Shown piece by piece: positions 36,053-60,334 of a stretch of 64,000 bases of DNA. The DNA lies in NCBI GenBank assembly GCA_964412895.1, contig CAYPQK010000001.1:5041-69040 (forward strand). The letters are read 5' to 3'. How positions within the stretch are numbered: the first letter of the stretch is position 1; each line of letters begins with the position of its first letter. The position numbers and the translations under genes were made by a program. The DNA is from an uncultured Spirochaetales bacterium (GTDB taxonomy: Bacteria > UBP6 > UBA1177 > JAKLFG01). The notes under the pieces are model-generated. The model made no database searches, was not told the DNA's origin, and saw only the letters and a list, made by a program, of their open reading frames with translations.

Positions 36053-36185
36053 GGGACGCTCCGTGAACCGTTGATGTCGCGCGATGCTAGCAGAAACGGC
36101 GGGACGAGTCAATGCGCCCAGATTTTATTTGAAAAACGGGACGCGGCGCATACAATGGGCCCCTGTTCTTGAGGGAGAGAACCGT

Positions 36186-36488
36186 ATGAACGATCATGTC
36201 TACCGGGTCCGTGAAGAGATCGCGTGGCGCAAGATGAAGGACGGGACGGTGACCATCGTTTCGCCGCTCGTCGAAAAGATCATATCCATCAACACGACGG
36301 CGGGGGTCATCTGGGAACTGCTCGACGGAAAGCGGACCGTCGCCGCGGTCATCGACAGCCTGTATGAAAAATTCAAAGGCGAAGAGGGGGTCGACCGGGC
36401 GGTGTTGGAACGCGATACCCATGAGATGTTACGCGACCTTATCGACCGTCAACTTGTCGAACAAATTGTTGACAATTCCGGCGGGTGA
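36186..36488 (+). CDS. PqqD-family protein (RiPP precursor peptide recognition element, RRE)
   Basis: GGGAGAG RBS. About 100 aa with PqqD-like core VSPLVEKIISINTTAGVIWELLDGKRTVAAVIDSL. First gene of a co-directional operon. Confidence 0.72.
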   Translation: MNDHVYRVREEIAWRKMKDGTVTIVSPLVEKIISINTTAGVIWELLDGKRTVAAVIDSLYEKFKGEEGVDRAVLERDTHEMLRDLIDRQLVEQIVDNSGG

Positions 36489-36539
36489 GGTTATCATCCG
36501 CAACCGGTTTCGATAGTGAACCATGAGTGGGAGTATAGC

Positions 36540-39500
36540 ATGAAGCGTATCGTTGTTGCTCTTATCTGGATTATGTTCCTGTCCCTCGTAGTAGGCGGCT
36601 GTTCCACCAAGGATCAGTGTAACGCCGACACCGACTGCAAGACGGGCTACGCCTGCGGTGACGACAAGAAGTGTCACGAGATACAGGTGGCGCTCCTCTT
36701 CCAGGACATCGCCGACGGTCAGACCCTCACGGTCGCCGACGATCTGGACAAGAGCGACGAGGCCATCCAGATCAATGTCACCGTTGCCGCGCAGGCGACG
36801 GCCGGCTCGATAAAGGACGGCACGGCGATCACCCTCGAGGTGAAGAGTTCCGCGGCCGAGACCTCCGACGGCGACACCGTGAACGGCACCGCCGCGACCG
36901 CGACGAAAAGCTATGCCGGGATACTCGTCAACGGCTTCGCCCGTTTTCTCAATATCCCCTTCGCGGAAGGACAGCATACCGTGACCGCCTATCTGACCCT
37001 GAGTCCCGCCATCAAGGTGACGGCGACCCTCACCGCCACCTATGAACAGACCGATACGCTGGTCATGCGCTACTATAAAGGCGGCACCACTCCGACGATG
37101 CTCGAAGGGGCGACGCTCGACGACAACGACGATCTCAACAAAGAGGCGGCGAATTTTCAGGTGAAAATGGAAGCGGTGACCACCGGGTATGCCGACGGGC
37201 AGGTGGTCGAGATATTCATCGAAGGCTACAGCATCACATGGGCGCCGGCCATCATAGAGGACGGCGTGGCGTCGTTCCCGTCGTTCGTCGTGCCGATATG
37301 GGCCGACATCGTGATGCGGGTGAAGGTGGCCGATGTCGAGGATACGCTCGCCTTCAGCGCCGTTTCGGCGGAGTCCTGCGGCTTTGCGCTCGATATCCAG
37401 AACAACGACCGGTTCGGCATGGCCGACGATACGAGTGCCGGACTCAGCGGTCTCCAGAAGATGCTCACCATCAGCGATGTCACCCTCTGCTCTACCGGTT
37501 CCGAGATAGAGATATACATCGACGGCGTGCCGGGCACCGACGAACCTGACGAAACGCTGACTCTCGGCGCGGCGTCGGTCCAGCAGTCGATCACCCTGCC
37601 CGAAAGCGCGAACCAGACCGATACCCGCACCGTCACGGTGGTGATGAAGGATGACGACAGCTCGGCGACCGGCCAGATGACCGTCACCGGTCTGTTCGTC
37701 GACATCACGGCGCCGACACTGAGTGTCACTGCGCCGCTTGATAACACCACCCTTACCCCGGTCGACGACACCAATACTTCGCTGGAAGGGGTCCAGATAG
37801 CGGTCACCGGTTCGGCATCCGACTCGTTGTCGGACGAGGTCACGGTCGAGGTGCGCGACGGCACGACGCTGTTGGGCGATACGACCGGTACCGGCGACTA
37901 CTCCGTGGACGATGTCTCCTTCACCGCGACCAACGAGGCGCTGACGCTCGCGGTCACCGCCCGCGACGCCATCGGCAACGAAACGGTCGTCGAGGTCCCG
38001 CTCAAGGTCTATGTGAACGATCCGGTGATAGCCTTCCAGACCATCTGCGCCCGGACCCCGGTCATGAATATGCAGCTTTCGTCGGCCGACGACGGCGACC
38101 AGCTCGCCGGCGGCGTCCAGTGCGCCGTCATCGTCCGGACCACCGACATCGAATCGGCCTCGACCGAGGTGTCGCTGAATATCAACGATGAAGATCCGAT
38201 AGTCGAAACGATAGGGACCGGCGGCCTCACGCTGTTCGACATGGTCACCCTGCCCGACGGCGAGGATTCGCTCACGGCCCGGGTCATGCATCTGGGGACC
38301 GCATACCAAACCGGGATCACCGTGCAGGTCGATGCGACCCTGCCGGTGGTGACGCTCACGCTCACCCCGACGGTCGACGGCGGGTTCGCGCAGTCGGTCG
38401 ACGCCGACTTCGCCTTCTCGTGCAGCGAAGCCGATTGCGAATACAGCTACCGTATCGACAGCGGAGCTTTGTCGGCCTACGCGACGACCGCCACCGCCGA
38501 ATACACCGCGCTGGCCGAAGGGCTTCATACCTTCGCCGTTCAGGCCCGCGACCCGTTCGGGAATGTCGGCGATCTGACCGTCTTCAACTGGACGATCGAT
38601 CACACGGCGCCCGCCGCCCCGACGGTGACCGGAGTAACGCCGACCAACGATACGACCCCCGAATGGTCGTGGAACACCCCGACCGGCACGGTCGAATTCC
38701 GTTACAGCACCGACCAGACGAACTGGACGACGACCGCCGTCACCGCCTTCACCCCGGCCCCGGCGCTCGCCGAGGGCGACCAGATACTCTATGTGCAGGG
38801 CCGTGACGCCGCCGGCAACTGGTCGGCGAGCGGATCGTTCACCATCACCATAGACACCACCGCCCTTTCCGCCCCGGTCGTGAGCGGCACCACGCCGACC
38901 AACGACACCACCCCCAAATGGTCGTGGGACGCGATAACCGACGCGGTCGAATATCGCTACAGTTACACCGACGGCTCCGGCTGGACGACGACCGCCGACA
39001 ACTTCTTCATTCCGGTCACGGCGCTCACCGCGGGCGACCACACCCTCTTCGTTCAGGCCCGCGACGCGGCGGAGAACTGGTCCGACAGCGGCTGGTTCAC
39101 CATCACCATAGACCTCACCGCTCCCGCCGCCCCGGAGGTGCTCGGCACCACGCCGACCAACGACACCACGCCGAACTGGTCGTGGATACCGGTCGCCGAC
39201 GCGGTCAACTACCGCTACAGCTACGATGAGATGACTTGGACCGAAACCGTCGATACGACCTTCACCCCGACCACGCAGCTCGCCGCGGGGACTTATACCC
39301 TTTTCGTTCAGGCGCAGGATGCCGCCGGCAACTGGTCGCTTTCGGGATCGAAGGAGGTTGTGATCGACCTGTCGACGCCCAATGCGCCGGTGGTTACCGG
39401 CGTAACGCCGACCACCGATACGACGCCGACCTGGTCATGGGGCGCGGTGACCGACGCGGTCGAATACCGCTACAGTTACACCGACGGCTCCGGCTGGGCG

Positions 39501-42500
39501 ACGACGACCGCTCTTTCCTTCACGCCGTCCGCGGCGCTCGCCGAGGGCTTTGTCACGCTCTTTGTGCAGGCCCGCAACGGCGTCGGCACTTGGTCGGGCA
39601 GCGGGCTTTTCACCATCGAGATAGATATCACCGCCCCGGCGGCGCCGACGGTGACCGGCATAACGCCCACCAGCAACACCCAGCCGACTTGGTCGTGGGA
39701 CACCCCGACCGACGCGGTCGAGTTCCGTTACAGCTACGACGAATCTTCGTGGACCGTTACGACGGCCAATTCTTTTACCCCGGGCAGTGCGCTGATCGAC
39801 GACGCCTATACCCTTTATGTCCAAGCCCGCGACGCGGTCGGCAATTGGTCGACGAGCGGATCGTTCGAGATCGTGGTGGACACCGAGGCGCCGGTCGCGC
39901 CGACGGTGACCGGTACCACGCCGACCAACGACACGACGCCAACTTGGTCGTGGAATACCCCGGTCGGCGCGGTCAACTTCCGCTACAGCTACACCGATGG
40001 ATCGGGCTGGACCGAAACAACCGGCACCAGCTACACCGCCGCCCCGGCCCTTACCGCCGGTACCTACACGCTCTATGTGCAGGCCGCCGACGCTACCGGT
40101 AACTGGTCGACGAGCGGCAGTTTCGCCATCACGATAGACACCACCGCGCCGACGCTGGTTATCGGTGCGCCGTCGGCGACCGTTGCGAAGAACGGGACCG
40201 ATGTGACCTATACCGTCACTTACTCCGGCGCCGACACCGTGACGCTGGCGAACGGCAACATCACGCTCAACGCGACCGGCGGCGCCTCGGGCTCCGTCGC
40301 AGTGACCGGCACCGGCACGGTGACCCGCACCGTGACGATATCGAACCTGACCGGGAACGGCACGCTCGGCATCAGCATCGCGGCCGGAACGGCGAGCGAC
40401 ACGGCGGGGAACACCGCCCTCGCGGCCGGTCCGTCGGCCACCTTCACGGTCGATAACACCGCGCCGACCGTGGTCATCGATCCGGTCAATGCCTGCACCC
40501 GCCGGACGACCGGCACGATCTCGTTCACCGTGACCGGCGCGACCACCACCACCTGCCGGTTCGACACCCCCGCCGGGCTCGGCACACCGGGCGCCTGCGG
40601 CGGCTCCTACGGATATACCCTCGTCGATGGCGACGGCACCTATACCCTCACCGTCACGGCGACCGACGATGCCGGCAACAGCGGCTCGGACGATGCCTTC
40701 TTCTCGCTCAACACCACCACGCCGACCGTCCAGTGGTTCCTGCCGGCCAGCGGCACCAGCTACAAGGCCGGTTCTGCGGTGCCGAGTTTCGTCTACCGCA
40801 CCAAGAACCTCGAGGCGGGCGAAATGGTCGAGATCATAGATGCTGACACCGGACTTGCCTTGGCCAGCGGGATCACCGCCGGATCGCTCTGCAACGCGAC
40901 CGAGGATGTCTCGATACCGCTCGATCTGCCCGACAAGTGCGGCACCTACAAACTCTACGCCAAGGTCAACGACGGCGTCGACTCCGTTGATCGCTACACC
41001 GATAATCTTACGGCACTTCCGGCGACCCAGCGTACCTACACCTTCGACCGCGACGAGCCGGTCATCTCCTCCTTCGTGGTGAATAACGACGCCGACAGCA
41101 ACAATGTCCTCATCTCGACCGAGGATGCCGACGGCATCGCGGGCAACGGGATGCAGGCCGATATCACCATCACGGTACAGGACGCCATCGACATCGGCCG
41201 CACCGTGACGCTCCGCAACAAGACGACCGGCAACACCTACACCGCGACGGTCGTGGGCGATAAAACCGCCACCTTCACCGGCATCACGATACCGGAAGGG
41301 ATCAACTCCTTCGGCGCGACGCTGGTCGACTGCGGCGGCAACACCTCCGCCGAGAGCGCGAAGACCATCACCGTCGATACCACCCCGCCGAGCGTCCTGT
41401 TCCAAGGCCCGACCGGCGTGACGCCGGGCCATCCGCTCTGGCTCACCTCGCGCGATGGCACCGTGGTCGGCGACGAACTGATCGGACAGGAGCTGAAGTT
41501 CAAGATAACGGGCGACTGGGATAACGCCACCCCGGTGGTCAAGCATTTCGTGTACGACTATGCCGATGCGCCCGTGGGTGCGGCCCATACCTATACCCTC
41601 GGCGAAATGGACATCGTCGGCACCGAGGTGAGCATCGACCTCGACGGCTCGGACGATCCCGCCGCGCCGCTCGCCTACAACAAACACAAGTTCGAGATCA
41701 CCGTCGAGGACGCGAACGGCAACATCCGCGTCGCCTCGCGCACCTACGAGGGCGACCCCAAGATCCCGAACGCCGTCATTTCCTATCCGACCGACGAACT
41801 GGTACTCGATGTCACAAAAGATGAGGACGCGGTCGCGTCGGGCGTCCAGTTCACGCTGCACCTCGATCTGACCAAGCTCGCCACCCCGACCGGCACCGAC
41901 TCGACCATCGATATCCTCGCGATACCGATAACGGCGCTCGGCGGCACCGAGGATGGTACCCGCAGCCGCAAATCGTGGAACGGTTTCATCGCCGACACCG
42001 ACGGCGCCGCTCAGACCTTCCCGAACGACGGCACCTTCCTGCGGCTCGGTGACGGCTTCTGGCGCCTGACGGTCAAGGTGACCGACGACCACCAGAATGT
42101 CTACGACACCGCTCTCCTGCCGGTCGCTCAACAGATCGATGTCGATGTGGTGACCGATGTTGCCTCTTCGTCGCTCTATCTCAGTAACGATAAACTCATC
42201 AACGGTACCCAGACCGCCCCGACATGGCTCAACAGCAACGACGGCGGTCCCACCTACGATCTGTATGTCGAGACCGATTCCCCGAACGGCACGAACAACG
42301 CCTGCATAAATGTCAACGCCGGAGGCGACATCTGCGCTGATGTGGACGCCGGCCGTGCCGAATTCACCGCGGTGGCGCTCACCACCGGCGGGGTCGAGAA
42401 CACCATCGTGTTGACGGTCAACAACGGCGTTGCGGTCGCGACCGACACCTACTATGTCCGCGCCGACAACACCGATCCGACGCTCGATCCGGCGACCGAT

Positions 42501-44597
42501 GTCAATCCGGAGCCCTATGTCCACGGCGCCGGTATCTGGGAGATCGGCTACGGTTATGACGACGACATCGACCATGACACCACCGCGATACTCGAACTCG
42601 ACGGCGCCTCGGTGAACCGGCTCATCTTCGTCATCGGCAACATCGAGGATGTGGCGGGCTACACGACCCACGGGACCGTCGTCCTGACCCCGGTCGACGC
42701 GATCGGCGGGACCACCACCGTCAATATCGCCGAGGACGGCGCCGACATGATGGCCGAATTCACGAACCTCACCTTCGAGGACAGCGTCATCGGCGGTCAG
42801 ACCGACATCGAGATGCTGGTGACGATAACCGAACAGCCCTCCGGCAACACCTACACCAAAACGATCTTCGTCCATGTCAATCTGGAGAAACCCGAAGGTA
42901 TCACCCCGACCGTGACCACCGATCCGGCCCGCGGCGAATCTTTCGTTCAGTGGAATGCCGTCGTCGGCAACAATTCGGCCTACGCCGGTGCGTTCCAGAA
43001 CCGCGTGTACGAATATCAGGTGAAGTATGAACAGTATGGCGGCGCCTGTTCGCTCGATGACAGCGAAAGTGCGTTCGACACCGGCGTCGCGATCACTCCG
43101 CTGGCCGACTTCTCGGTGGCCGATCCGTCGCTCAACGGCGATGATTTCGTCGCGCCCAAAGCGGCGGGCGAAGCGCAGAACTACATGTTCTACCTAAAGA
43201 AACGGTCGAATATCGCCCTCACCCAGACCGCCGACATCCACCGGAACGGCGATCCCTACTGCTTCGCGGTCCGCGCCAGCGACGGCATCTATGCGCAGGA
43301 CGGCACGATACTTGTGACAAATACCTCGCCCATCTTGTCTACCAATGTTGTGGATAAGGGAGCGATACAGTTGACCTCTAATGAGCTGATAGCAACGGCC
43401 GCGGGTGCCCATTCAACCATGAATATCAAGAATATGGGCGACATCAACGGCGATACCAAGACCGATTTTGTCATTTCCGATTCGGGTCGGCAGAAAGCGT
43501 ATGTGTTCATCAGCAACGCGGTAGGCGCTCCGACAAAACTGGAACTGGTCAATCCGGTGGATGTCGGTATCACCTCTTTCGGGTATCGTCTCGCCCTCGC
43601 CGACCTTAATGGTGATGGATTCACGGATGTTCTGGTAAGCGATGTCGGCACGAAGAGCATCCATATTTATTATGGTATAGCCAATTCGGTCAATACCGCT
43701 CGCGGCGATAAGATCACCTTTGTCGATACCATATCCGACCTTTCTGGTATCGGCGATTTCAATGGCGACGGATGTCATGATCTTGTTGTCGGGCAGGCAT
43801 CGTATGACGATCCGGGGAATGCGGCCCCCGGCGACCAGACGGGGCGGGCTTTCGTGGTTTATGGTGACGACAAAGGCGCCGCGGGAAAGACCTGCATCGG
43901 CGATTATACTACGCAGGTCGGCGTCTCTTATCTCGGTTCAGCCGCCGGCGAACGGTTCGGATACAATGTCCGGAAAATCGGGAACATCAAGAACGAAATG
44001 AATGGCACCGTGCCCTACGGTTGTTTTGTCGGCGGACATTATGACAATGTCAATCCGGCATCCGCCAAGATCACTAAGGCCAAAGTGTTCTATGGTTCCG
44101 CTGCTCCGGTCGGCGGCAATATCACCTCCTATGATGTCACCGTTAACGGTCTTGCTCAACTTCGCACCCTCTTCTTCGGGAAACTCAACGGTGACGATTT
44201 CTCCGATTTCGGCATCATTGACAGCGGTAAGATAAAATTCTTCTACGGGTCGGCCGCCGGTACCGTTTTCCCGGGCGTATGGACCGAAGGGACCAATCAG
44301 ATCACCCGTAGCGACATCATGGATGAAGTGGCGGGCGTCGAAAGCGGCGTGTGGGGATTGGGCAGTTCCGGATATGCCGAAGATATCAACGACGATGGGC
44401 TGACCGATTTCTTCATCAACGGAGAAAAGGATCAGTATATGTATAGCGGGATGGGCACCTTCTTTACGATGCACCCCGCTCTCTATATGGGTCTTCCCAT
44501 AGGGGCAGGCAGTTCACAGTCGACGATCCTTTCCTACGGACTGGTGGTGTGTAACCGCAACACCGATGCCGGTAATTGTATGTTGTATTATCGTTAA
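36540..44597 (+). CDS. Giant (2693 aa) surface adhesin-like lipoprotein with tandem Ig-like repeats and C-terminal FG-GAP/VCBS repeats
   Basis: GGGAG RBS. Signal plus lipobox VGGC. Six tandem repeats of about 85 aa (TPTNDTTPxWSW...YRYSxxDxxxW...). C-terminal GDxNGDGxxD integrin-alpha-like repeats. Confidence 0.85.
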   Translation: MKRIVVALIWIMFLSLVVGGCSTKDQCNADTDCKTGYACGDDKKCHEIQVALLFQDIADGQTLTVADDLDKSDEAIQINVTVAAQATAGSIKDGTAITLEVKSSAAETSDGDTVNGTAATATKSYAGILVNGFARFLNIPFAEGQHTVTAYLTLSPAIKVTATLTATYEQTDTLVMRYYKGGTTPTMLEGATLDDNDDLNKEAANFQVKMEAVTTGYADGQVVEIFIEGYSITWAPAIIEDGVASFPSFVVPIWADIVMRVKVADVEDTLAFSAVSAESCGFALDIQNNDRFGMADDTSAGLSGLQKMLTISDVTLCSTGSEIEIYIDGVPGTDEPDETLTLGAASVQQSITLPESANQTDTRTVTVVMKDDDSSATGQMTVTGLFVDITAPTLSVTAPLDNTTLTPVDDTNTSLEGVQIAVTGSASDSLSDEVTVEVRDGTTLLGDTTGTGDYSVDDVSFTATNEALTLAVTARDAIGNETVVEVPLKVYVNDPVIAFQTICARTPVMNMQLSSADDGDQLAGGVQCAVIVRTTDIESASTEVSLNINDEDPIVETIGTGGLTLFDMVTLPDGEDSLTARVMHLGTAYQTGITVQVDATLPVVTLTLTPTVDGGFAQSVDADFAFSCSEADCEYSYRIDSGALSAYATTATAEYTALAEGLHTFAVQARDPFGNVGDLTVFNWTIDHTAPAAPTVTGVTPTNDTTPEWSWNTPTGTVEFRYSTDQTNWTTTAVTAFTPAPALAEGDQILYVQGRDAAGNWSASGSFTITIDTTALSAPVVSGTTPTNDTTPKWSWDAITDAVEYRYSYTDGSGWTTTADNFFIPVTALTAGDHTLFVQARDAAENWSDSGWFTITIDLTAPAAPEVLGTTPTNDTTPNWSWIPVADAVNYRYSYDEMTWTETVDTTFTPTTQLAAGTYTLFVQAQDAAGNWSLSGSKEVVIDLSTPNAPVVTGVTPTTDTTPTWSWGAVTDAVEYRYSYTDGSGWATTTALSFTPSAALAEGFVTLFVQARNGVGTWSGSGLFTIEIDITAPAAPTVTGITPTSNTQPTWSWDTPTDAVEFRYSYDESSWTVTTANSFTPGSALIDDAYTLYVQARDAVGNWSTSGSFEIVVDTEAPVAPTVTGTTPTNDTTPTWSWNTPVGAVNFRYSYTDGSGWTETTGTSYTAAPALTAGTYTLYVQAADATGNWSTSGSFAITIDTTAPTLVIGAPSATVAKNGTDVTYTVTYSGADTVTLANGNITLNATGGASGSVAVTGTGTVTRTVTISNLTGNGTLGISIAAGTASDTAGNTALAAGPSATFTVDNTAPTVVIDPVNACTRRTTGTISFTVTGATTTTCRFDTPAGLGTPGACGGSYGYTLVDGDGTYTLTVTATDDAGNSGSDDAFFSLNTTTPTVQWFLPASGTSYKAGSAVPSFVYRTKNLEAGEMVEIIDADTGLALASGITAGSLCNATEDVSIPLDLPDKCGTYKLYAKVNDGVDSVDRYTDNLTALPATQRTYTFDRDEPVISSFVVNNDADSNNVLISTEDADGIAGNGMQADITITVQDAIDIGRTVTLRNKTTGNTYTATVVGDKTATFTGITIPEGINSFGATLVDCGGNTSAESAKTITVDTTPPSVLFQGPTGVTPGHPLWLTSRDGTVVGDELIGQELKFKITGDWDNATPVVKHFVYDYADAPVGAAHTYTLGEMDIVGTEVSIDLDGSDDPAAPLAYNKHKFEITVEDANGNIRVASRTYEGDPKIPNAVISYPTDELVLDVTKDEDAVASGVQFTLHLDLTKLATPTGTDSTIDILAIPITALGGTEDGTRSRKSWNGFIADTDGAAQTFPNDGTFLRLGDGFWRLTVKVTDDHQNVYDTALLPVAQQIDVDVVTDVASSSLYLSNDKLINGTQTAPTWLNSNDGGPTYDLYVETDSPNGTNNACINVNAGGDICADVDAGRAEFTAVALTTGGVENTIVLTVNNGVAVATDTYYVRADNTDPTLDPATDVNPEPYVHGAGIWEIGYGYDDDIDHDTTAILELDGASVNRLIFVIGNIEDVAGYTTHGTVVLTPVDAIGGTTTVNIAEDGADMMAEFTNLTFEDSVIGGQTDIEMLVTITEQPSGNTYTKTIFVHVNLEKPEGITPTVTTDPARGESFVQWNAVVGNNSAYAGAFQNRVYEYQVKYEQYGGACSLDDSESAFDTGVAITPLADFSVADPSLNGDDFVAPKAAGEAQNYMFYLKKRSNIALTQTADIHRNGDPYCFAVRASDGIYAQDGTILVTNTSPILSTNVVDKGAIQLTSNELIATAAGAHSTMNIKNMGDINGDTKTDFVISDSGRQKAYVFISNAVGAPTKLELVNPVDVGITSFGYRLALADLNGDGFTDVLVSDVGTKSIHIYYGIANSVNTARGDKITFVDTISDLSGIGDFNGDGCHDLVVGQASYDDPGNAAPGDQTGRAFVVYGDDKGAAGKTCIGDYTTQVGVSYLGSAAGERFGYNVRKIGNIKNEMNGTVPYGCFVGGHYDNVNPASAKITKAKVFYGSAAPVGGNITSYDVTVNGLAQLRTLFFGKLNGDDFSDFGIIDSGKIKFFYGSAAGTVFPGVWTEGTNQITRSDIMDEVAGVESGVWGLGSSGYAEDINDDGLTDFFINGEKDQYMYSGMGTFFTMHPALYMGLPIGAGSSQSTILSYGLVVCNRNTDAGNCMLYYR
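38600..40140 (+). repeat. Six tandem repeats of about 255 bp (85 aa) inside the giant adhesin gene
   Basis: Repeated protein motif APAAPTVTG(V/T)TPTNDTTPxWSW...(E/N)(F/Y)RYS...FTP..AL..G.YTL(F/Y)VQA(R/Q)DA(A/V)GNWS.SGSF.I.ID. Confidence 0.8.
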
Positions 44598-44611: not shown

Positions 44612-44740
44612 ATGTATAAGAAGCCTTGCGTCCTGGAAGAAAAGACCATAGAAAAAAGGATCCTTTTCGCCTGCACCCTTGATACGCCGGAAGACGAGTT
44701 CTGCGTAGACAGCATTTCTACCGCCGGCAGTCAAGGCTGA
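44612..44740 (+). CDS. Small ORF (42 aa) encoding a candidate RiPP precursor peptide (not in the ORF track)
   Basis: GGGAGGAA RBS 5 nt upstream of the ATG. Sequence MYKKPCVLEEKTIEKRILFACTLDTPEDEFCVDSISTAGSQG with 3 Cys. Locally lower GC. Sits 15 nt after the giant gene and 19 nt before the peptidase gene. Confidence 0.5.
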   Translation: MYKKPCVLEEKTIEKRILFACTLDTPEDEFCVDSISTAGSQG

Positions 44741-44759: not shown

Positions 44760-45203
44760 ATGAATAATTTTTCCATCGACGAACTCATTGCAACCTTCTC
44801 TACCGATGGCGGTCTCGGCGTGGTGCTGTTCGGCGCACAGAACTCCATGCTGCCTTCCATTCGCCCCGGAGAACTCATCCACATCGCGCCGGTGGATCGC
44901 GACCGTCTGCGTTCCGGCGATGTGGTGGTCTTCCGCACCGGCGAAGTGCTCGTGGCGCACCGGCTCGTCTGGAAACGCGGCTTCGTCGCGCGGACCAAGG
45001 GCGACAACAATCCCTATTGCGACCCAGCCATACCGGTGTTCGACATCGTCGGCGTGGTCGAAGGAAAGAAGTCGCGGTGGGCGTTCTGCTACTATCTCGT
45101 GCGGAACCGGCTTCGCCACTACACGCCCCGTCCGGCGCGACTGCTGTTCTCGGAGTTGAAGAATAAACTGCTCGGCCGGAAACGGTGGATGGAACACCTA
45201 TGA
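44760..45203 (+). CDS. Clan SF (signal-peptidase I / LexA-like S24/S26) serine peptidase-like protein
   Basis: Motifs GAQNSMLPSIRPGELI, GDVVVFRTGEVLVAHRLVWKRG and VARTKGDNNP resemble the Ser-Lys dyad boxes of S24/S26 peptidases. Its 3' end overlaps the rSAM gene. Confidence 0.55.
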   Translation: MNNFSIDELIATFSTDGGLGVVLFGAQNSMLPSIRPGELIHIAPVDRDRLRSGDVVVFRTGEVLVAHRLVWKRGFVARTKGDNNPYCDPAIPVFDIVGVVEGKKSRWAFCYYLVRNRLRHYTPRPARLLFSELKNKLLGRKRWMEHL

Positions 45204-46213
45204 CCATCAAACGCCCCGGCATCCTTTTCGAGGTGGCGGACCGCTGCGATGCGCGGTGTCTGCACTGTTACCAGCCGCGGGAATGCGCTCACCGGCTCAT
45301 GTCGCTCGCCGAGATCGAACGGGTGCTCGACATCCTTGCCGATAACGAATATCTCGATGTCACCTTCAGCGGCTACGAGCCGTTCACCAATCCCGACCTG
45401 TTCAAGATCATCGAGGCGGCCCGCAAGCGCCGGTTCTTCGTCAATCTCAAGACCAACGGTCTCCATCTCACCGCCGACAATGTCGCGCGGCTGAAGGCGC
45501 TCCATATCGGCACGGTCCATGTCTCCCTCTATTCGCCCGACCGCGATGAACACGACCGCGCCGCCGGTGTCCCCGGGGCGTACGACCGTATCATGACCGG
45601 CCTCGACCTTCTGCGTGAGGCAGGCATAAAGGCCATGCTTGCCGCGCCGCTTTTGCATCCGCTCCCCGATCTCGCGCGGCTCACCGCCTTTGCCAAAGAG
45701 CGCGATCTGCAGCTGGTCATCGACTACGGTTTGTTCAGTTCGTTCGACAAACGGCCCGAAGTCGAGGCGGTGAAGCTGACCGAAGCGGAGCTTGAGACGG
45801 CGATCCGTTTTCAGTACGGCATAGAAGGCGACGAGATGAATTTCTATGCGCCGAAGGAGGCTTCGTTCCTTTGCCACTACGGTGATCCTTCCACTTTCCG
45901 CATAGACTGCGCGGGCGGCATTTATGCCTGCGGCAAATGCACCGTGCCGCTCGGCAACCTGCTGACCGACGATTTTGCCGCGTTGGTGCAGAGGGCGGCG
46001 GCGGAACGGCCGCGCATCATCCGCGACCGGGAATGCAACGACTGCGACCTGTTCCCGTACTGTAGCCCCTGTCCCGCCGAAGCGTTATTGGACGGCGGCT
46101 TTCTCTGCGGCTGTTCGGCGGTACGCAAACGGATCGCCCAGATCAAGCGCCGGATCGGCAGCGCAGGAACAAAAAGGACCGGCGATGCCGCGGAGGGTCC
46201 GTGTCAGGTTTGA
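45185..46213 (+). CDS. Radical SAM enzyme with C-terminal SPASM domain (peptide-modifying maturase-like)
   Basis: CxxxCxxC motif in RCDARCLHCY. A C-terminal Cys cluster (CAGGIYACGKC...CNDCDLFPYCSPC) is typical of SPASM/twitch domains. Confidence 0.85.
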   Translation: MDGTPMTIKRPGILFEVADRCDARCLHCYQPRECAHRLMSLAEIERVLDILADNEYLDVTFSGYEPFTNPDLFKIIEAARKRRFFVNLKTNGLHLTADNVARLKALHIGTVHVSLYSPDRDEHDRAAGVPGAYDRIMTGLDLLREAGIKAMLAAPLLHPLPDLARLTAFAKERDLQLVIDYGLFSSFDKRPEVEAVKLTEAELETAIRFQYGIEGDEMNFYAPKEASFLCHYGDPSTFRIDCAGGIYACGKCTVPLGNLLTDDFAALVQRAAAERPRIIRDRECNDCDLFPYCSPCPAEALLDGGFLCGCSAVRKRIAQIKRRIGSAGTKRTGDAAEGPCQV

Positions 46214-46953
46214 AGACCCGCTGTTTTTCGATAGCAGGCTATCTCCTGAATATATCGTATGCCCCCCGGATGATCTTTCCCGCGCCGTTCCGGTTGTTTG
46301 AGACCGCAACACCGAATGAACTTCTTCTTCCTATAACCACCCAAGAACATTCCGATATCAACGACATTCGACGAGTCAACGGCGCATGGCGGATATCACG
46401 GCACCGGCCGTACCTCTATCTGCCCAAAGTGCTGGCCTACGAAGGCTTCGAGCGCGAGGAACTGTTCCTGCTCGTCCATTCCTGCTTTCTTGTTGATCGA
46501 GGGGGATGGAGCCATCTCTTTCTCGCCACTTCGGGGACCGGGAAGAGTACGTTGGCCCGCAAGATGCGCGGCCTCATGACCGGCGGCAACGACGAGACCA
46601 ATGTCCTCTGCCGTCGCGCCGGTATTCTTTACGGTTATTCGACCCCCTTCTACACGATATCGAAGCTCAAGAACGCCGTCATCTCCAATATCTCCGCGCC
46701 GCTCAAACGGGTCTATCTCCTGCGCAAGACCGAAGAGCCGTCGCGTATCGGTGAGCCGGTCGCCGGAGATGTACTGTGGCGCTATCTGGTCGAGGGACAG
46801 GTGAGCACACCGTACAGTAAACGCGAATATTTTTCCGCCTACCACCGCATGGTGAACGACCTCTGCGACTGCCACCCCGTCCATCCTTTCCATCACAACT
46901 TGACCGATCCGCCCGAACGGATCGCGGCGCTCCTCGAAAGCGGCGACCGGTAA
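46201..46953 (+). CDS. HPr kinase/phosphorylase-like (HprK C-terminal domain) P-loop protein
   Basis: P-loop LATSGTGKSTLA in an HprK-like context. GTG start overlapping the rSAM stop. Exact start uncertain (alternative ATG at 46270). Confidence 0.55.
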   Translation: MSGLKTRCFSIAGYLLNISYAPRMIFPAPFRLFETATPNELLLPITTQEHSDINDIRRVNGAWRISRHRPYLYLPKVLAYEGFEREELFLLVHSCFLVDRGGWSHLFLATSGTGKSTLARKMRGLMTGGNDETNVLCRRAGILYGYSTPFYTISKLKNAVISNISAPLKRVYLLRKTEEPSRIGEPVAGDVLWRYLVEGQVSTPYSKREYFSAYHRMVNDLCDCHPVHPFHHNLTDPPERIAALLESGDR

Positions 46954-46973
46954 AACATACTAAAAGAATCGTT

Positions 46974-47031
46974 AGTAGGCCCCGGCCTACTTGTTGTCGA
47001 TAGGCGTCGGCCTACAAGTGTTGCTTTTTTG
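46974..47031 (+). terminator. Probable rho-independent terminator ending the PqqD-to-HprK-like operon
   Basis: Two GC hairpins (GTAGGccccggCCTAC and TAGGCgtcgGCCTA) followed by TTGCTTTTTT. Confidence 0.45.
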
Positions 47032-47132
47032 ATTGCGGAGATTACTTCTTAGAATCATAGAGCTTTTCTATTAAAGATCATCAAGGATGTTTATTTGCAG
47101 AGTATTTTCAAGCTGTTATAACATTTTTTCTG

Positions 47133-47161
47133 TTGACAAAGTTCCCTTACGAGGATATGCT
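47133..47161 (+). promoter_or_regulatory. Sigma70-like promoter upstream of the second small peptide ORF
   Basis: TTGACA, 17 nt spacer, TATGCT. Confidence 0.45.
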
Positions 47162-47202
47162 TGCGCTGTTTTGTTTGTTGAAAAAAGATATTTTTTGAAA
47201 TC

Positions 47203-47352
47203 ATGATGAATTCTCGCGGCTACGAAAAACCGGTTATAATTGAAGAACTCGTACTGGAAAAAGAACTTCTCTTTGCCTGCCTTTTTCATAACCGGAATCA
47301 GTGCGAACCTATCTGCCGCAACCCCGGGCAAAGCGCTGGGGAGCCTTGTTGA
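47203..47352 (+). CDS. Small ORF (49 aa), second candidate precursor peptide paralogous to 44612..44740 (not in the ORF track)
   Basis: MMNSRGYEKPVIIEELVLEKELLFACLFHNRNQCEPICRNPGQSAGEPC. Shares Y-x-K-P-x-[VI]-[LI]-E-E-x-x-[IL]-E-K-x-[IL]-L-F-A-C with the first peptide. 4 Cys. Lies in an AT-rich intergenic region. No clear SD. Confidence 0.42.
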   Translation: MMNSRGYEKPVIIEELVLEKELLFACLFHNRNQCEPICRNPGQSAGEPC

Positions 47353-47441: not shown

Positions 47442-48593
47442 ATGAAGAAGAACGCCGGAAATGAAAAAACGACCATACTTATAGTGGAAGACGATCCCGG
47501 ACTATCGAAGCTCATCGACATCTCTCTCAAAGCTCACGGGTGGGGAACGATAGCGGCCTTTTCGGGCGAAGAGGCGTTGGCGATGTCCCGGGACCGGCGG
47601 CCGCGGCTGATCCTCCTTGACTACTCACCCCCCGATATGTCGGGGTCCGACTTCATCGACGCCGCCGAACGGATAGCGTTCCCGTTGCCCCCTTTTATAG
47701 TGGCGACCGGCCGCGGAGACGAACGGATAGCGGTCGAGATGATGAAACGGGGCGCCCGCGACTACATCGTCAAGGATTCTCAGTTCCTCAACACTTTGAG
47801 CATAGCGGTCGAACGGGTATTGGAACAACTGGAAACGGAGCGGCGGCTGAAAGAGACCGAACGACTCCTGCGGGAACACGACGCGGCGCTCATCGCCTCC
47901 CGGGAACAGCTCCAGATATTCGCCGAACGGTTGCTCATCGTACCGGAACAGGAGCGGGCCCGCATCGCCCGCGAGATCCACGACCTGTTGGCGCAGGACC
48001 TGATCCGCCTGAAGATAGATCTGGTCTGGCTGAACGGACAGTTCGCCAAGATGACCCCGCTTCCCGTTCTTCTCAAAGAACGGGTCGTCGAGATGATCCA
48101 GATAGCGGACGGCGCGATCACCTGCGTGCAAAAGATCGCCACCGAACTGCGTCCGGCGGTGCTCGACAGTCTCGGGCTGTGCGCCGCGGTGGAATGGCAG
48201 GCCCGTGAATTTCAGGAACGGACCGGCATTCAGTGTCTGGTGAAAGTGCCGGAAAAAGATCTTCCGGTGGACAGGGATTTCACTATTGCCATTTTTCGTA
48301 TCCTGCAGGAGAGTCTGACCAATGTACGGCGGCACGCCAACGCAACGCGGGTGGATGTCCTGCTACGGCAAAAGGCCGGATATCTGTTCCTCAGGGTACA
48401 GGATAACGGATCCGGCATAACACCGACGGCGCTCCACGATCCGCTTTCCATCGGGCTTACCGGTATGCGGGAGCGGGCGGTGCTTCTCGGTGGTCGGATC
48501 GAGATCACCGGCAAGCCGGGGGCGGGGACGACGGTCGAGGTCCGGTTGCCGCTTTCGAAAATAGGAAAAAAACGGGAGGCGGCTCCGTTATGA
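47442..48593 (+). CDS. Hybrid REC-HisKA_3-HATPase_c sensor kinase (NarL-partner type, no extracytoplasmic sensor)
   Basis: N-terminal receiver ILIVEDDP...LLDYSPPDM. HisKA_3 H-box ERARIAREIHDLLAQ. HATPase G-box. Confidence 0.85.
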   Translation: MKKNAGNEKTTILIVEDDPGLSKLIDISLKAHGWGTIAAFSGEEALAMSRDRRPRLILLDYSPPDMSGSDFIDAAERIAFPLPPFIVATGRGDERIAVEMMKRGARDYIVKDSQFLNTLSIAVERVLEQLETERRLKETERLLREHDAALIASREQLQIFAERLLIVPEQERARIAREIHDLLAQDLIRLKIDLVWLNGQFAKMTPLPVLLKERVVEMIQIADGAITCVQKIATELRPAVLDSLGLCAAVEWQAREFQERTGIQCLVKVPEKDLPVDRDFTIAIFRILQESLTNVRRHANATRVDVLLRQKAGYLFLRVQDNGSGITPTALHDPLSIGLTGMRERAVLLGGRIEITGKPGAGTTVEVRLPLSKIGKKREAAPL

Positions 48594-49213
48594 ATATTCT
48601 GATCGCGGACGATCATGCCATTGTGCGGAAAGGGTTAGCCCAACTTTTGGTCGACGAGTTCCCCGGCGTGTCGATCGGCGAGACCGCCGGCACGCAGGAA
48701 ACGCTGGCCGAGCTGTCGCTCCGGCGGTGGGATGTATTGGTGCTCGACATCTTCATGCCGGGGTCCGGCGGACTCACGGTGCTTGACGAAGTGAAGCGCC
48801 AACAGCCGCGACTGCCGGTGCTGGTCCTGAGCACCGCGCCGGAAGAACAGATGGCGGCCCGGGTCCTGAAAGCGGGGGCGAGCGGCTATCTCAATAAACA
48901 GTGCGCTCCCGAGGAATTGGTCAATGCGGTCAGAAAGATACTCGCTCACGGCCGCTATGTCAGCGTCACGATGGCGGAACGGCTCGCCGCCGATATCGGC
49001 CGGCCCGAACGATCCCTGCAGGAAGAACTCTCCGATAGGGAATACACCGTCCTACGGATGCTCGTGGCGGGCAGATCGATCAAAGATATCGCGGCCGAAC
49101 TGAATATCAGCCCGAAAACGGTGAGTACCTTCCACACCCGGATATGGGGCAAGCTCCGCGTCACCAACGACGCCGACATGGTCCGTTACGCGCTGGATCA
49201 CGGCATCTCCTGA
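48590..49213 (+). CDS. NarL/LuxR-family response regulator (REC plus HTH_LuxR)
   Basis: ILIADDH...VLVLDIFMPG receiver. C-terminal LuxR HTH LSDREYTVLRMLVAGRSIKDIAAELNISPKTVSTF. ATGA overlap with the upstream kinase. Confidence 0.9.
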   Translation: MNILIADDHAIVRKGLAQLLVDEFPGVSIGETAGTQETLAELSLRRWDVLVLDIFMPGSGGLTVLDEVKRQQPRLPVLVLSTAPEEQMAARVLKAGASGYLNKQCAPEELVNAVRKILAHGRYVSVTMAERLAADIGRPERSLQEELSDREYTVLRMLVAGRSIKDIAAELNISPKTVSTFHTRIWGKLRVTNDADMVRYALDHGIS

Positions 49214-49341
49214 CCGTTTCACGCTCTTCGTAAGCGCAATCCTACAAAAGAAAAGGCGTCGTCCTACAGAAAAGCGACCGTGAAAAAGATATTCTGTTCC
49301 CAGTGAGGTGAATGGTCCGGGAATGGAAAATGGAGGTCGTC

Positions 49342-50862: not shown

Positions 50863-51486
50863 GTGAAGATATTGATCGCGGATGATCATGCGGTCGTGCG
50901 GAAAGGATTGGCCCGTCTTCTGGTCGACGAATTTCCCGATGTAACGATAGGCGAAGCCTCCGATTCTCAGGAAACGCTGAACGAGATATCCTTTCAACGG
51001 TGGGACCTGCTGGTGCTCGATCTTTTCATGCCGGGGATCGGCGGATCGGCGGTGCTCGACGAAGTGCGCCGGCTGTATCCGAAAATGCCGGTGCTGATTC
51101 TCAGCACCGCGCCGGAAGAACAGATGGCGGCGCGGATGCTTAAAGCGGGCGCGAACGGCTATCTCAACAAACAGTGCGCTCCCGAAGAGTTGGTGGGCGC
51201 GGTCAGAAAGGTTCTGGCGGGCGGCCGGTATGTCAGTTCCGGCATGGCGGAGCGGTTGGCCGAACAGATGGACCGCACCAGAAAAAGTCCGCAGGAAGAG
51301 CTCTCCGACCGGGAATACACCGTACTACGGGCGTTGGTCGCGGGCAGATCGGTCCGAGACATAGCGCAGGAATTGGGCATCAGCCCCAAAACGGTCAGTA
51401 CTTTTCACACCCGGATCTGGCGCAAACTGGGCGTCCGAAACGATGCCGACATGATCCGCTATGCACTGGGAAAAGGGTGGTCCTGA
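50863..51486 (+). CDS. NarL/LuxR-family response regulator, paralog (about 75% aa identity) of 48590..49213
   Basis: Same architecture and near-identical motif blocks (STAPEEQMAAR, GYLNKQCAPEEL, LSDREYTVLR, ISPKTVSTFHTRIW). Confidence 0.9.
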   Translation: MKILIADDHAVVRKGLARLLVDEFPDVTIGEASDSQETLNEISFQRWDLLVLDLFMPGIGGSAVLDEVRRLYPKMPVLILSTAPEEQMAARMLKAGANGYLNKQCAPEELVGAVRKVLAGGRYVSSGMAERLAEQMDRTRKSPQEELSDREYTVLRALVAGRSVRDIAQELGISPKTVSTFHTRIWRKLGVRNDADMIRYALGKGWS

Positions 51487-60260: not shown

Positions 60261-60334
60261 AAATGGAATCTTTGGGTTGACTTTTTACAAAATTCCGTAA
60301 TAATACGATTGTAATTTTACGAAGGAGCGCTGTC

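What the first reader, a model, noticed from the sequence alone, without database searches (positions are those of the whole stretch)
46201..46953. HprK-like kinase at the end of the operon: possible Ser phosphorylation of the peptides
The last gene has a GTGKST P-loop in an HPr-kinase C-terminal-domain-like context. From established knowledge, HprK homologs in lasso-peptide clusters (e.g. paeninodin-type) phosphorylate a C-terminal Ser of the precursor. Both candidate peptides end with Ser-containing tails (SISTAGSQG, GQSAGEPC). The start codon is ambiguous (GTG at 46201 overlapping the rSAM stop, or ATG at 46270).
Basis: inference. Interest (0 to 1): 0.6.

Follow-up and report, generated by a model that had tools for sequence, protein, structure and literature searches.

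The report
ScmC-type HprK-fold kinase in peptide-modification cluster
The gene encodes a small enzyme with the same fold as the bacterial HPr kinase, from a little-studied family (ScmC) that sits in peptide-modifying gene clusters; it probably adds phosphate to one of two neighbouring small peptides, but nobody has tested that for any member of the family.

Summary

Direct HMMs for HprK families fail: PF07475 gives no hit and TIGR04352 gives E=0.019. The protein belongs to Pfam PF27840 'ScmC'. The family's catalytic set (His93, Ser111, Gly114, Lys115, Thr117, Asp131, Glu/Asp132) is conserved, and its register matches His / GxSGxGKS / ADD of HprK/P.

The start is at GTG 46201 (or TTG 46210), not ATG 46270.

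The gene is one component of a conserved cassette: PqqD, a giant adhesin-like protein, precursor 1, an S24/S26-type peptidase, a radical SAM/SPASM enzyme, ScmC and precursor 2. Related ScmC genes elsewhere always sit beside a PqqD protein, a radical SAM enzyme or an S24-like peptidase, and some are fused to the S24-like peptidase.

Peptide Ser phosphorylation is the most plausible function, by analogy with lasso-peptide kinases, but it remains an inference. Precursor 1 has an invariant Ser, but no precursor in this clade ends in Ser and no lasso machinery is present. I found no experimental work on any ScmC protein.

The parts
46201..46953 (+). ScmC-family (PF27840) P-loop phosphotransferase with PEPCK/HprK fold, 250 aa. 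The start is GTG 46201 (or TTG 46210), not ATG 46270.
46528..46551 (+). Walker A / P-loop T110-S-G-T-G-K-S-T117
   Evidence: Sequence. S111, G114, K115 and T117 are invariant in 107 of 107 family members. The motif aligns with GDSGVGKS of L. casei HprK/P through P0252.
46477..46479 (+). His93, the family-invariant histidine on the strand before the P-loop. It corresponds to the conserved His of HprK/P ('MHGVLV') and of PEPCK ('HsSA').
   Evidence: 107 of 107.
46588..46596 (+). N130-D131-E132, the family signature [S/N]-D-[E/D]. It corresponds to A-D-D of HprK/P, the catalytic and metal-binding acidic pair.
   Evidence: D131 in 105 of 107; position 132 is E in 73 and D in 32.
45185..46213 (+). 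Radical SAM enzyme with a SPASM-type Cys-rich C-terminus. It is translationally coupled to the ScmC gene.
   Evidence: PF04055 at E=4e-23. The best NCBIfam hits are rSAM/SPASM peptide maturases, all far below their cut-offs. The motifs CX12CX6C and CX2CX5CX2C are visible in the translation.
44760..45203 (+). S24/S26-type (SipW/archaeal signal-peptidase-like) serine peptidase, 147 aa; candidate leader peptidase.
   Evidence: TIGR02228 at 48.1 bits (cut-off 51.85) and PF00717 at E=1.3e-4. The motifs NSMLP, AHR and GDNN are present. Homologous partners occur beside ScmC in L006 and L020, and the domain is fused to ScmC in P0026 and P0216.
44612..44740 (+). Precursor peptide type 1: MYKKPCVLEEKTIEKRILFACTLDTPEDEFCVDSISTAGSQG
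   Evidence: Five distinct orthologous sequences were aligned; in the core, C21, D28, E29, C31, S40 and G42 are invariant.
47203..47352 (+). Precursor peptide type 2: MMNSRGYEKPVIIEELVLEKELLFACLFHNRNQCEPICRNPGQSAGEPC
   Evidence: Six distinct orthologues share four invariant Cys; a Ser 5-6 residues after the third Cys is conserved only if a 1-residue shift is allowed. In L002, L008 and L009 this gene lies between the rSAM and ScmC genes.
36084..36488 (+). PqqD-family protein (RiPP recognition element). The likely start is ATG 36186.
   Evidence: PF05402 at E=1e-11. A PqqD gene sits at the same place upstream of the giant gene in L002 and L003.
36516..44597 (+). Giant (2693 aa) Big_13 / FG-GAP surface protein lying between the PqqD gene and precursor 1.
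   Evidence: Its orthologues carry Big_13 and FG-GAP domains and hold the same position in L001, L002, L011 and L016.
46954..47202 (+). Conserved intergenic region with a terminator-like hairpin (about 46974-47031) and a promoter-like site (TTGACA-17-TATGCT, 47133-47161) ahead of precursor 2.
   Evidence: It is 76-82% identical to L001 and L011; the hairpin z-score is only -1.5.
47442..49213 (+). Two-component pair: a receiver-HisKA_3-HATPase kinase (47442-48593) and a LuxR-type response regulator (48590-49213). It is syntenic with the cassette in the closest relatives.

Best explanation
ORF 46201-46953 encodes a catalytically intact ScmC-family phosphotransferase. It has an N-terminal beta domain and a PEPCK/HprK-type P-loop domain.

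It is one component of a ribosomal-peptide maturation cassette. In that cassette a PqqD protein binds the conserved leader (Y-x-K-P-x-I-x-E-E...L-L-F-x-C). The radical SAM/SPASM enzyme cross-links the Cys-rich core. The S24/S26-like peptidase removes the leader.

The ScmC protein most likely uses ATP (possibly PPi, as HprK/P can) to phosphorylate a hydroxyl group of the precursor. The best candidate site is the invariant Ser three residues from the end of precursor 1 (S40, ...TAG-S-QG). The second candidate is the Ser after the third Cys of precursor 2.

Shown here: the fold, the family, the conserved catalytic residues and the cassette association. Inferred: the substrate, the site and the order of steps.
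For: Fold:
- Foldseek's top 50 hits are all PEPCK or HprK/P.
- The model has pLDDT 91.6.

Family:
- Every homologue carries PF27840 ScmC.
- The orthologue-only profile finds 239 relatives among 1.8 billion representatives. Of the 100 members of alignment A2 scanned, 80 match ScmC, 48 match HprK_rel_A, 43 match HprK_rel_B, 13 match HPr(Ser) kinase and about 10 match PEPCK. ABC families match only 1-4.
- The family profile hits PEPCK at 2.6e-7 and HprK/P at 6.6e-5 in the PDB.

Active site:
- H93, S111, G114, K115 and T117 are invariant, D131 is present in 105 of 107, and position 132 is E or D in 105 of 107.
- The register matches the His / P-loop / ADD of HprK/P.

Cassette:
- The gene overlaps the rSAM stop codon here and in the orthologues.
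- ScmC-PqqD-rSAM/SPASM recurs in L006, L018 and L022, and peptide-ScmC-rSAM recurs in L016 and L011.

Peptide kinase precedent:
- The only characterised HprK homologues in RiPP clusters phosphorylate a precursor Ser (PMC8498205).
- The L018 cluster pairs ScmC with an NTP_transf_5 nucleotidyltransferase, a sulfotransferase and an ABC exporter. These are the partner genes found alongside kinases in lasso-peptide clusters. Its precursor shares this leader motif and ends in Ser.
- The extra precursor next to the ScmC paralogue in L011 also ends in Ser.
- Ser40 of precursor 1 is invariant.
Against: - No ScmC-family protein has been characterised. Searches of the paper library for ScmC and SynChlorMet found nothing, so kinase activity on peptides is an extrapolation from distant relatives. 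HprK_rel_A scores only 14 bits on this protein.
- The precursors of this clade do not end in Ser, which is the feature lasso kinases recognise.
- The Ser of precursor 2 is not in an invariant column, and a Ser in a 20-residue core is weak evidence by itself.
- ScmC is a constant core component. It is sometimes fused to the S24 peptidase (P0026, P0216) and sometimes found with PqqD and S24 but no rSAM (L020). That fits a role in leader recognition or cleavage at least as well as a decorative phosphorylation.
- No phosphatase, lyase or phospho-dependent partner is present in the window.
Confidence: 0.45

Rival explanations
1. ScmC is an ATP-dependent core partner of the PqqD protein and the S24/S26-like peptidase rather than a tailoring kinase. 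It would bind or transiently phosphorylate the precursor, or the peptidase, to gate leader cleavage or hand-over to the radical SAM enzyme. The final product would then carry no phosphate.
For: - ScmC-S24 peptidase fusion proteins exist: P0026 (S24 and SPase hits) and P0216.
- ScmC-S24-PqqD occurs without any rSAM in L020, a cluster with 1032 member sequences.
- A homologous S26-like gene follows ScmC-PqqD-rSAM in L006.
- ScmC is present in every cassette examined, as a core gene would be.
Against: - All characterised members of this fold are true phosphotransferases, and the full catalytic set is conserved.
- L016 and the extra L011 module have ScmC and rSAM without an adjacent peptidase.
- There is no precedent for kinase-gated leader cleavage.
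Confidence: 0.25
2. The kinase acts on something other than the precursor peptides. Candidates are a protein of the locus (the giant Big_13/FG-GAP protein, or the receiver domain-containing kinase) or a small molecule.
For: - PEPCK, the best structural match over both domains (218 aligned residues), acts on a small molecule.
- HprK/P acts on a folded protein.
- The giant surface protein is always next to the cassette.
- The P0216 fusion sits among housekeeping genes with no visible peptide.
Against: The linkage to the PqqD, rSAM and precursor genes is tight and conserved across very different genomes. The giant protein is presumably exported, while ScmC has no signal peptide or membrane segment in the model.
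Confidence: 0.12
3. Phosphorylation serves as an activation step. The phospho-Ser would be eliminated to dehydroalanine, as in class III/IV lanthipeptide synthetases, and then attacked by one of the conserved Cys to give a lanthionine-type ring.
For: Both precursors combine conserved Cys with a conserved Ser. Phosphorylation followed by elimination is established chemistry in lanthipeptide biosynthesis (general knowledge).
Against: There is no lyase or cyclase domain in the cluster. The radical SAM/SPASM enzyme already accounts for Cys cross-linking. No HprK-fold enzyme is known to take part in such a route.
Confidence: 0.08
4. The ORF is an unrelated P-loop protein (an ABC ATPase fragment) or a genuine carbon-catabolite HPr kinase/phosphorylase.
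For: Single-sequence searches give weak P-loop-centred hits to ABC ATPases: ABCD4 at E=0.096 and 0.014, and the NCBIfam ABC families at E 0.03-0.14.
Against: - No LSGGQ signature or Walker B motif is present in the sequence.
- The ABC hits cover only 20-70 residues around the P-loop.
- Against a genuine HprK/P: PF07475 and TIGR00679 do not hit, only the 117-129 residue kinase core aligns, and the genomic context is a peptide-maturation cassette.
Confidence: 0.02

Closest known systems
ScmC, the conserved hypothetical protein of the SynChlorMet (SCM) cassette (NCBIfam TIGR04249; Pfam PF27840)
   Same: It is the best direct HMM hit (TIGR04249, E=5.5e-4). This protein and all 100+ relatives carry PF27840 in the precomputed annotation. 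Like ScmC, it is associated with a PqqD protein and a radical SAM/SPASM enzyme in a presumed peptide-maturation cassette.
   Different: It scores 19 bits against the 125-bit equivalog cut-off. The window has one rSAM/SPASM gene rather than the ScmE/ScmF pair. The PqqD gene is separated from the cassette by an 8-kb adhesin-like gene. The cassette also has an S24/S26-like peptidase and two identifiable precursors. This clade is tiny: 10 clusters at 90% identity and 4 of 185,579 species genomes. I found no experimental function for ScmC itself.
Lasso-peptide precursor kinases (PadeK/ThcoK of the paeninodin type; proteobacterial HprK-related kinases A/B, TIGR04352/TIGR04355; PsmK of pseudomycoidin)
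   Same: They are HprK-fold P-loop kinases encoded in RiPP clusters beside a PqqD-type leader-binding protein. Many relatives found with this protein's profile also match TIGR04352 or TIGR04355. Other ScmC clusters carry the same accessory genes as those lasso clusters: NTP_transf_5, a sulfotransferase and an ABC exporter.
   Different: TIGR04352 scores only 14 bits here. There is no lasso cyclase or B2 protease; the cross-linking enzyme is a radical SAM/SPASM protein. Lasso kinases act on the C-terminal Ser (PMC8498205), whereas these precursors end in Gly or Cys.
HPr kinase/phosphorylase (HprK/P, PF07475, TIGR00679) and ATP-dependent PEP carboxykinase (PF01293)
   Different: There are no significant direct HMM hits. 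The protein has no MurE-like N-terminal domain of HprK/P and none of the large substrate-binding insertions of PEPCK. The context is unrelated to PTS regulation or gluconeogenesis.

Membership tests
ScmC family (Pfam PF27840) | Match to the Pfam model | tested here: met
   The precomputed PF27840 hit is unmarked (E<=1e-5) on the identical protein P0001 and on all orthologues. The model is absent from the local Pfam copy, so it could not be re-run.
ScmC equivalog (NCBIfam TIGR04249) / SCM cassette | Score at or above the 125-bit equivalog cut-off | tested here: not met
   19.4 bits, E=5.5e-4.
ScmC equivalog (NCBIfam TIGR04249) / SCM cassette | PqqD homologue (ScmD) in the cassette | tested here: met
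   PF05402 at E=1e-11 on 36084-36488. The gene is not adjacent: it lies 8 kb upstream, before the giant gene.
ScmC equivalog (NCBIfam TIGR04249) / SCM cassette | Two radical SAM/SPASM proteins (ScmE and ScmF) | tested here: not met
   Only one rSAM gene is present (45185-46213). It scores about 50 bits on TIGR04250 and TIGR04251 against cut-offs of 400.
Lasso-peptide kinases / HprK-related kinase A and B (TIGR04352, TIGR04355) | HMM score above the cut-off | tested here: not met
   TIGR04352 gives 14.1 bits against a cut-off of 200; TIGR04355 is not listed.
Lasso-peptide kinases / HprK-related kinase A and B (TIGR04352, TIGR04355) | Lasso cyclase (Asn-synthase-like) and B2 protease in the cluster | tested here: not met
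   None is found among the ORFs scanned between 34451 and 54144, or at 58152-61660. The giant gene at 36516-44597 was not scanned itself; its L001 and L002 orthologues carry only Big_13/FG-GAP-type domains.
Lasso-peptide kinases / HprK-related kinase A and B (TIGR04352, TIGR04355) | Precursor ends in Ser, the phosphorylation site | tested here: not met
   In this clade type 1 precursors end in G, L or Q, and type 2 precursors end in C, V or P.
Lasso-peptide kinases / HprK-related kinase A and B (TIGR04352, TIGR04355) | ATP-dependent phosphorylation of the precursor peptide | not testable with these tools
   This needs a biochemical assay or mass spectrometry.
HPr kinase/phosphorylase (PF07475, TIGR00679) | HMM match | tested here: not met
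   There is no PF07475 hit at E<=1, and TIGR00679 is not listed.
HPr kinase/phosphorylase (PF07475, TIGR00679) | C-terminal kinase-domain fold with P-loop, conserved His and acidic pair | tested here: met
HPr kinase/phosphorylase (PF07475, TIGR00679) | N-terminal MurE/F-like domain and an HPr substrate | tested here: not met
   Only the kinase core aligns to HprK/P (117-129 residues). The N-terminal beta domain aligns to PEPCK instead (218 residues). No search for ptsH was made.
ABC transporter ATPase | ABC fold with signature motif (LSGGQ), Q-loop and Walker B | tested here: not met

The most novel reading that the evidence does not exclude
ScmC proteins are not optional tailoring kinases. 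They would be the ATP-using core of a widespread, uncharacterised peptide-maturation module made of ScmC, PqqD and an S24/S26 peptidase, with or without a radical SAM/SPASM enzyme. In the clade found here, that module would make a phosphorylated, Cys-cross-linked peptide tied functionally to a giant Big_13/FG-GAP surface protein and an adjacent two-component system. Examples would be a secreted signal or an adhesin-associated factor.
Probability: 0.15. Interest if true: 0.75.

Novelty: new variant of a known kind. Interest (0 to 1): 0.5.

Why it matters
The ScmC family has been catalogued by curated HMMs (NCBIfam TIGR04249, Pfam PF27840). I found no experimental study of it, and its substrates are unknown.

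This locus offers something most SCM-type cassettes lack: two clearly identifiable precursor peptides with a shared leader, a single radical SAM partner and a small peptidase. That makes it a compact system for reconstitution.

If ScmC phosphorylates the precursor, peptide phosphorylation by HprK-fold kinases would extend from lasso peptides to radical-SAM-modified peptides. If instead it gates leader cleavage, as the fusions to S24 peptidases hint, that would be a new logic in RiPP maturation.

The practical correction for annotators is that gene callers truncate this protein. The database versions start at 46270 or later, whereas the N-terminal hairpin is part of the fold.

Tried and rejected
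- Single-sequence searches against Pfam, NCBIfam and the PDB gave only sub-threshold hits, and ABC ATPases ranked among the top ones. On their own these would have wrongly suggested an ABC fragment.
- The first AlphaFold run used only the 10 orthologues and gave an unusable model (pLDDT 36.5). It was replaced by a run with a 107-sequence family alignment.
- The afdb50 fold library was not available.
- Literature searches for ScmC, SynChlorMet, and HPr kinase combined with radical SAM, SPASM or PqqD found nothing on this family. The primary papers on the paeninodin kinase (PMC4919450) and the Haft and Basu survey (PMC3133131) are not held.
- Rfam and tRNA scans of the window were empty.
- Taxonomy could not be obtained. 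All source records are labelled only 'bacterium'.
- The conserved intergenic region is no more conserved than the flanking genes, and its hairpin is not statistically unusual, so I make no RNA-element claim.
- A leader-motif scan found no precursors with this leader in L004, L006, L020 or L022.
Full report
**1. The observation**

The window has an ORF at 46201-46953 (+) of 250 aa. Its residues 110-117 read T-S-G-T-G-K-S-T, encoded at 46528-46551. The GTG at 46201 lies 13 nt inside the preceding radical SAM gene, whose stop codon is TGA 46211-46213. An in-frame ATG is at 46270.

**2. Direct family tests**

- Pfam-A gives no PF07475 (Hpr_kinase_C) hit at all.
- NCBIfam gives ScmC (TIGR04249) at E=5.5e-4 and 19 bits against a cut-off of 125.
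- NCBIfam gives HprK-related kinase A (TIGR04352) at E=0.019.
- It also gives a tail of ABC ATPases at E=0.03-0.14, aligned only around the P-loop.
- The PDB sequence search gives only ABC-type P-loop hits, at E about 0.1 for the single sequence and 0.014 for the orthologue profile.

Taken alone, this would leave the ABC-fragment alternative open.

**3. Homologues**

The protein has very few close relatives.
- There are 10 clusters among 5.8 billion sequences, at 57-100% identity, all unnamed.
- Loci occur in only 4 of 185,579 species-representative genomes, all labelled 'MAG: bacterium'.
- Five metagenome contigs carry it, from activated-sludge and similar samples.
- All carry the precomputed Pfam domain PF27840, which another output names 'ScmC'. 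That model is newer than the local Pfam copy.

A profile of the orthologues was searched exhaustively against 1.84 billion representatives and found 239 proteins at E<=1e-3. I aligned 98 of these with the window protein and one orthologue and scanned all 100 members:
- 80 match ScmC;
- 48 match HprK-related kinase A;
- 43 match HprK-related kinase B;
- 13 match HPr(Ser) kinase/phosphatase;
- about 10 match PEP carboxykinase;
- individual ABC families match only 1-4.

A 107-sequence family profile hits ATP-PEPCK (E=2.6e-7, including the helix and the 'lHsSa' strand before the P-loop) and L. casei HprK/P (E=6.6e-5) in the PDB.

**4. Structure**

AlphaFold with only the 10 orthologues failed (pLDDT 36.5). 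With the 107-sequence family alignment it gave pLDDT 91.6 and pTM 0.89.

Foldseek's top 50 are all PEPCK or HprK/P. No ABC ATPase appears in either list.

**5. Active site**

P0252, a family member, aligns to L. casei HprK/P as LHASAVEVEGRAIAILGPSGTGKSTIAALLCTAGARLVADDV against [42 protein letters not shown].

In the family alignment:
- the window's H93, S111, G114, K115 and T117 fall in columns that are invariant in 107 of 107 sequences;
- D131 is present in 105 of 107;
- position 132 is E in 73 and D in 32.

The window's N-D-E is thus the family's normal version of the HprK 'A-D-D' motif. From general knowledge of HprK/P, the P-loop lysine and this acidic pair carry out phosphoryl transfer. 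I infer that the protein is an active phosphotransferase.

**6. Start codon**

- The N-terminal 23 residues (MSGLKTRCFSIAGYLLNISYAPR) are conserved in the orthologues' extended ORFs. Examples are MSDLKTRCFAIAGYLLKISY in L011, MPNLKNRQFSIGGFLLNISY in L001 and MRSRRFDIADTSLSVSG in L002.
- Distant family members start with the same F-x-I-a-G-x-x-l-x-I pattern.
- Residues 5-20 are modelled as a beta-hairpin with block pLDDT 89-95.
- A GGAGG lies 4 nt upstream of GTG 46201.

The start is therefore GTG 46201 (or the conserved TTG at 46210), not ATG 46270. Database gene calls of 211-232 aa are truncated.

**7. Context in the window**

Upstream to downstream:

| Coordinates | Feature | Evidence |
|---|---|---|
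| 36084-36488 | PqqD protein | PF05402, E=1e-11, |
| 36516-44597 | 2693-aa Big_13/FG-GAP surface protein | |
| 44612-44740 | precursor 1 | |
| 44760-45203 | 147-aa S24/S26 (SipW/archaeal signal-peptidase-like) peptidase | 48 bits on TIGR02228, cut-off 51.85; motifs SMLP, AHR, GDNN; |
| 45185-46213 | radical SAM enzyme with a SPASM-type Cys pattern | |
| 46201-46953 | ScmC | this finding |
| 46954-47202 | conserved intergenic region with a terminator-like hairpin and a promoter-like site | |
| 47203-47352 | precursor 2 | |
| 47442-49213 | two-component pair | |

The same order holds in L001, L002 and L007-L015. In L002, L008 and L009 the precursor 2 gene sits between the rSAM and ScmC genes. 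There is no lasso cyclase or B2 protease.

**8. The peptides**

Both types share a leader, Y-x-K-P-x-[IV]-x-E-E...[EK]-x-L-L-F-x-C. In type 1 (5 distinct sequences) the invariant core residues are C21, D28, E29, C31, S40 and G42. Type 2 (6 distinct sequences) has four invariant Cys, and a Ser 5-6 residues after the third Cys that aligns only with a one-residue shift. No peptide of this clade ends in Ser.

**9. ScmC elsewhere**

| Locus | Gene order |
|---|---|
| L006 (Anaerolineales) | ScmC-PqqD-rSAM/SPASM-S26-like peptidase |
| L016 | giant Big_13/FG-GAP protein-39 aa peptide (same leader motif)-ScmC-rSAM |
| L011 | an extra module, peptide (ends ...SPLTS)-ScmC paralogue-rSAM paralogue, in front of the standard cassette |
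| L018 | ScmC-PqqD-rSAM/SPASM-52 aa peptide (leader WEKPVIES...ALAC, ends ...CGYYFS)-sulfotransferase-ABC exporter-NTP_transf_5 |
| L022 | NTP_transf_5-ABC-ScmC-PqqD-rSAM/SPASM |
| L020 (a cluster of 1032 sequences) | ScmC-S24 peptidase-PqqD-methyltransferase, no rSAM |

P0026 and P0216 are ScmC-S24 peptidase fusion proteins.

ScmC thus behaves as a core partner of PqqD, of an S24/S26-like peptidase and usually of an rSAM/SPASM enzyme. In some clusters it is joined by the partner genes (a nucleotidyltransferase, a sulfotransferase, an exporter) that accompany HprK-type kinases in lasso-peptide clusters. In those clusters the kinase phosphorylates the precursor's C-terminal Ser and the nucleotidyltransferase glycosylates the phosphate (PMC8498205).

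**10. Interpretation**

- Shown: the fold, the family, the intact catalytic residues, the corrected start and the conserved cassette.
- Inferred: the substrate.

The best reading is ATP-dependent phosphorylation of a precursor hydroxyl. The first candidate is Ser40 of precursor 1. The analogy is to the only characterised RiPP-associated HprK homologues, and it gains some support from the L018 and L011 precursors that do end in Ser.

The main rival is that ScmC is an ATP-using core partner of the peptidase and PqqD (gating leader removal or substrate hand-over). The fusions and the rSAM-less L020 cluster suggest this.

Phosphorylation followed by elimination, and non-peptide substrates, are less likely. 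An ABC fragment and a true HprK/P are excluded.

**11. Novelty and score**

The family is catalogued (TIGR04249, PF27840). I found no experimental paper on it in the library. This protein fails the ScmC equivalog cut-off, and its cassette differs from the SCM definition: one rSAM, an added S26-like peptidase, two precursors, and a giant adhesin gene between PqqD and the rest. I rate it a new variant of a known (bioinformatically defined) kind. Interest is moderate at 0.5. It is not surprising to a RiPP specialist, but it is a compact, testable entry point to an uncharacterised enzyme family.

Noticed in passing
window 36516-44597; L001 1-6269; L002 286-6090; L011 2-1705; L016 1-5856: A giant Big_13/FG-GAP surface protein (1900-2700 aa) always lies directly upstream of the precursor, ScmC and rSAM genes. 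This holds both in this clade and in the sister clade (L016). A second FG-GAP protein follows the two-component genes (window 49312-50850). The link between an adhesin-like protein and a peptide-maturation cassette is unexplained.
   Followed up: partly
L011 1718-3560: One relative carries an extra tandem module in place of precursor 1. It consists of a 44-aa peptide (MTVPYATPKIISEIAMSQKMIYAGCNIENDWDETDPCFSSPLTS, which ends in Ser), a ScmC paralogue (242 aa) and a second rSAM/SPASM gene (327 aa). ScmC and the rSAM gene therefore seem to duplicate as a pair together with their peptide.
   Followed up: partly
P0026 (395 aa), P0216 (380 aa; L004 6001-7143): Fusion proteins exist with ScmC at the N-terminus and an S24/S26 peptidase at the C-terminus. 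P0216 lies among housekeeping genes (dnaE, PRPP synthetase, thyX), with no rSAM, PqqD or visible precursor nearby.
   Followed up: partly
L020 4513-7568: An abundant cluster (1032 member sequences) has a 160-aa protein, ScmC, an S24-like peptidase, PqqD and a methyltransferase, with no radical SAM gene. ScmC, PqqD and the peptidase may therefore form a module of their own.
   Followed up: no
L018 6001-12894; L022 1827-7371: These loci have ScmC-PqqD-rSAM/SPASM cassettes with an NTP_transf_5 nucleotidyltransferase, a sulfotransferase and an ABC exporter. These are the accessory genes seen in kinase-containing lasso-peptide clusters. The L018 precursor shares the E-K-P-x-I leader motif of the window's peptides and ends in Ser.
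   Followed up: partly
window 46954-47202: The intergenic region between ScmC and precursor 2 is 76-82% identical to those of L001 and L011, about as conserved as the flanking coding DNA. It contains a hairpin followed by a T-run, and a TTGACA-17-TATGCT promoter-like site at 47133-47161. This suggests separate, possibly regulated, transcription of precursor 2. No Rfam family matches.
   Followed up: partly
window 36429-39041 (-), 39435-42875 (-), 39236-40102 (+): Very long ORFs (870 and 1146 aa) run antisense or out of frame inside the giant repeat-rich gene. Their Arg/Gly/Asp-rich low-complexity translations suggest artefacts of composition rather than genes.
   Followed up: no
window 47442-48593, 48590-49213, 50863-51486: The histidine kinase next to the cassette has an N-terminal receiver domain and no obvious membrane segment. 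Two nearly identical-length LuxR-type response regulators flank the second FG-GAP gene. The same arrangement occurs in L001.
   Followed up: no
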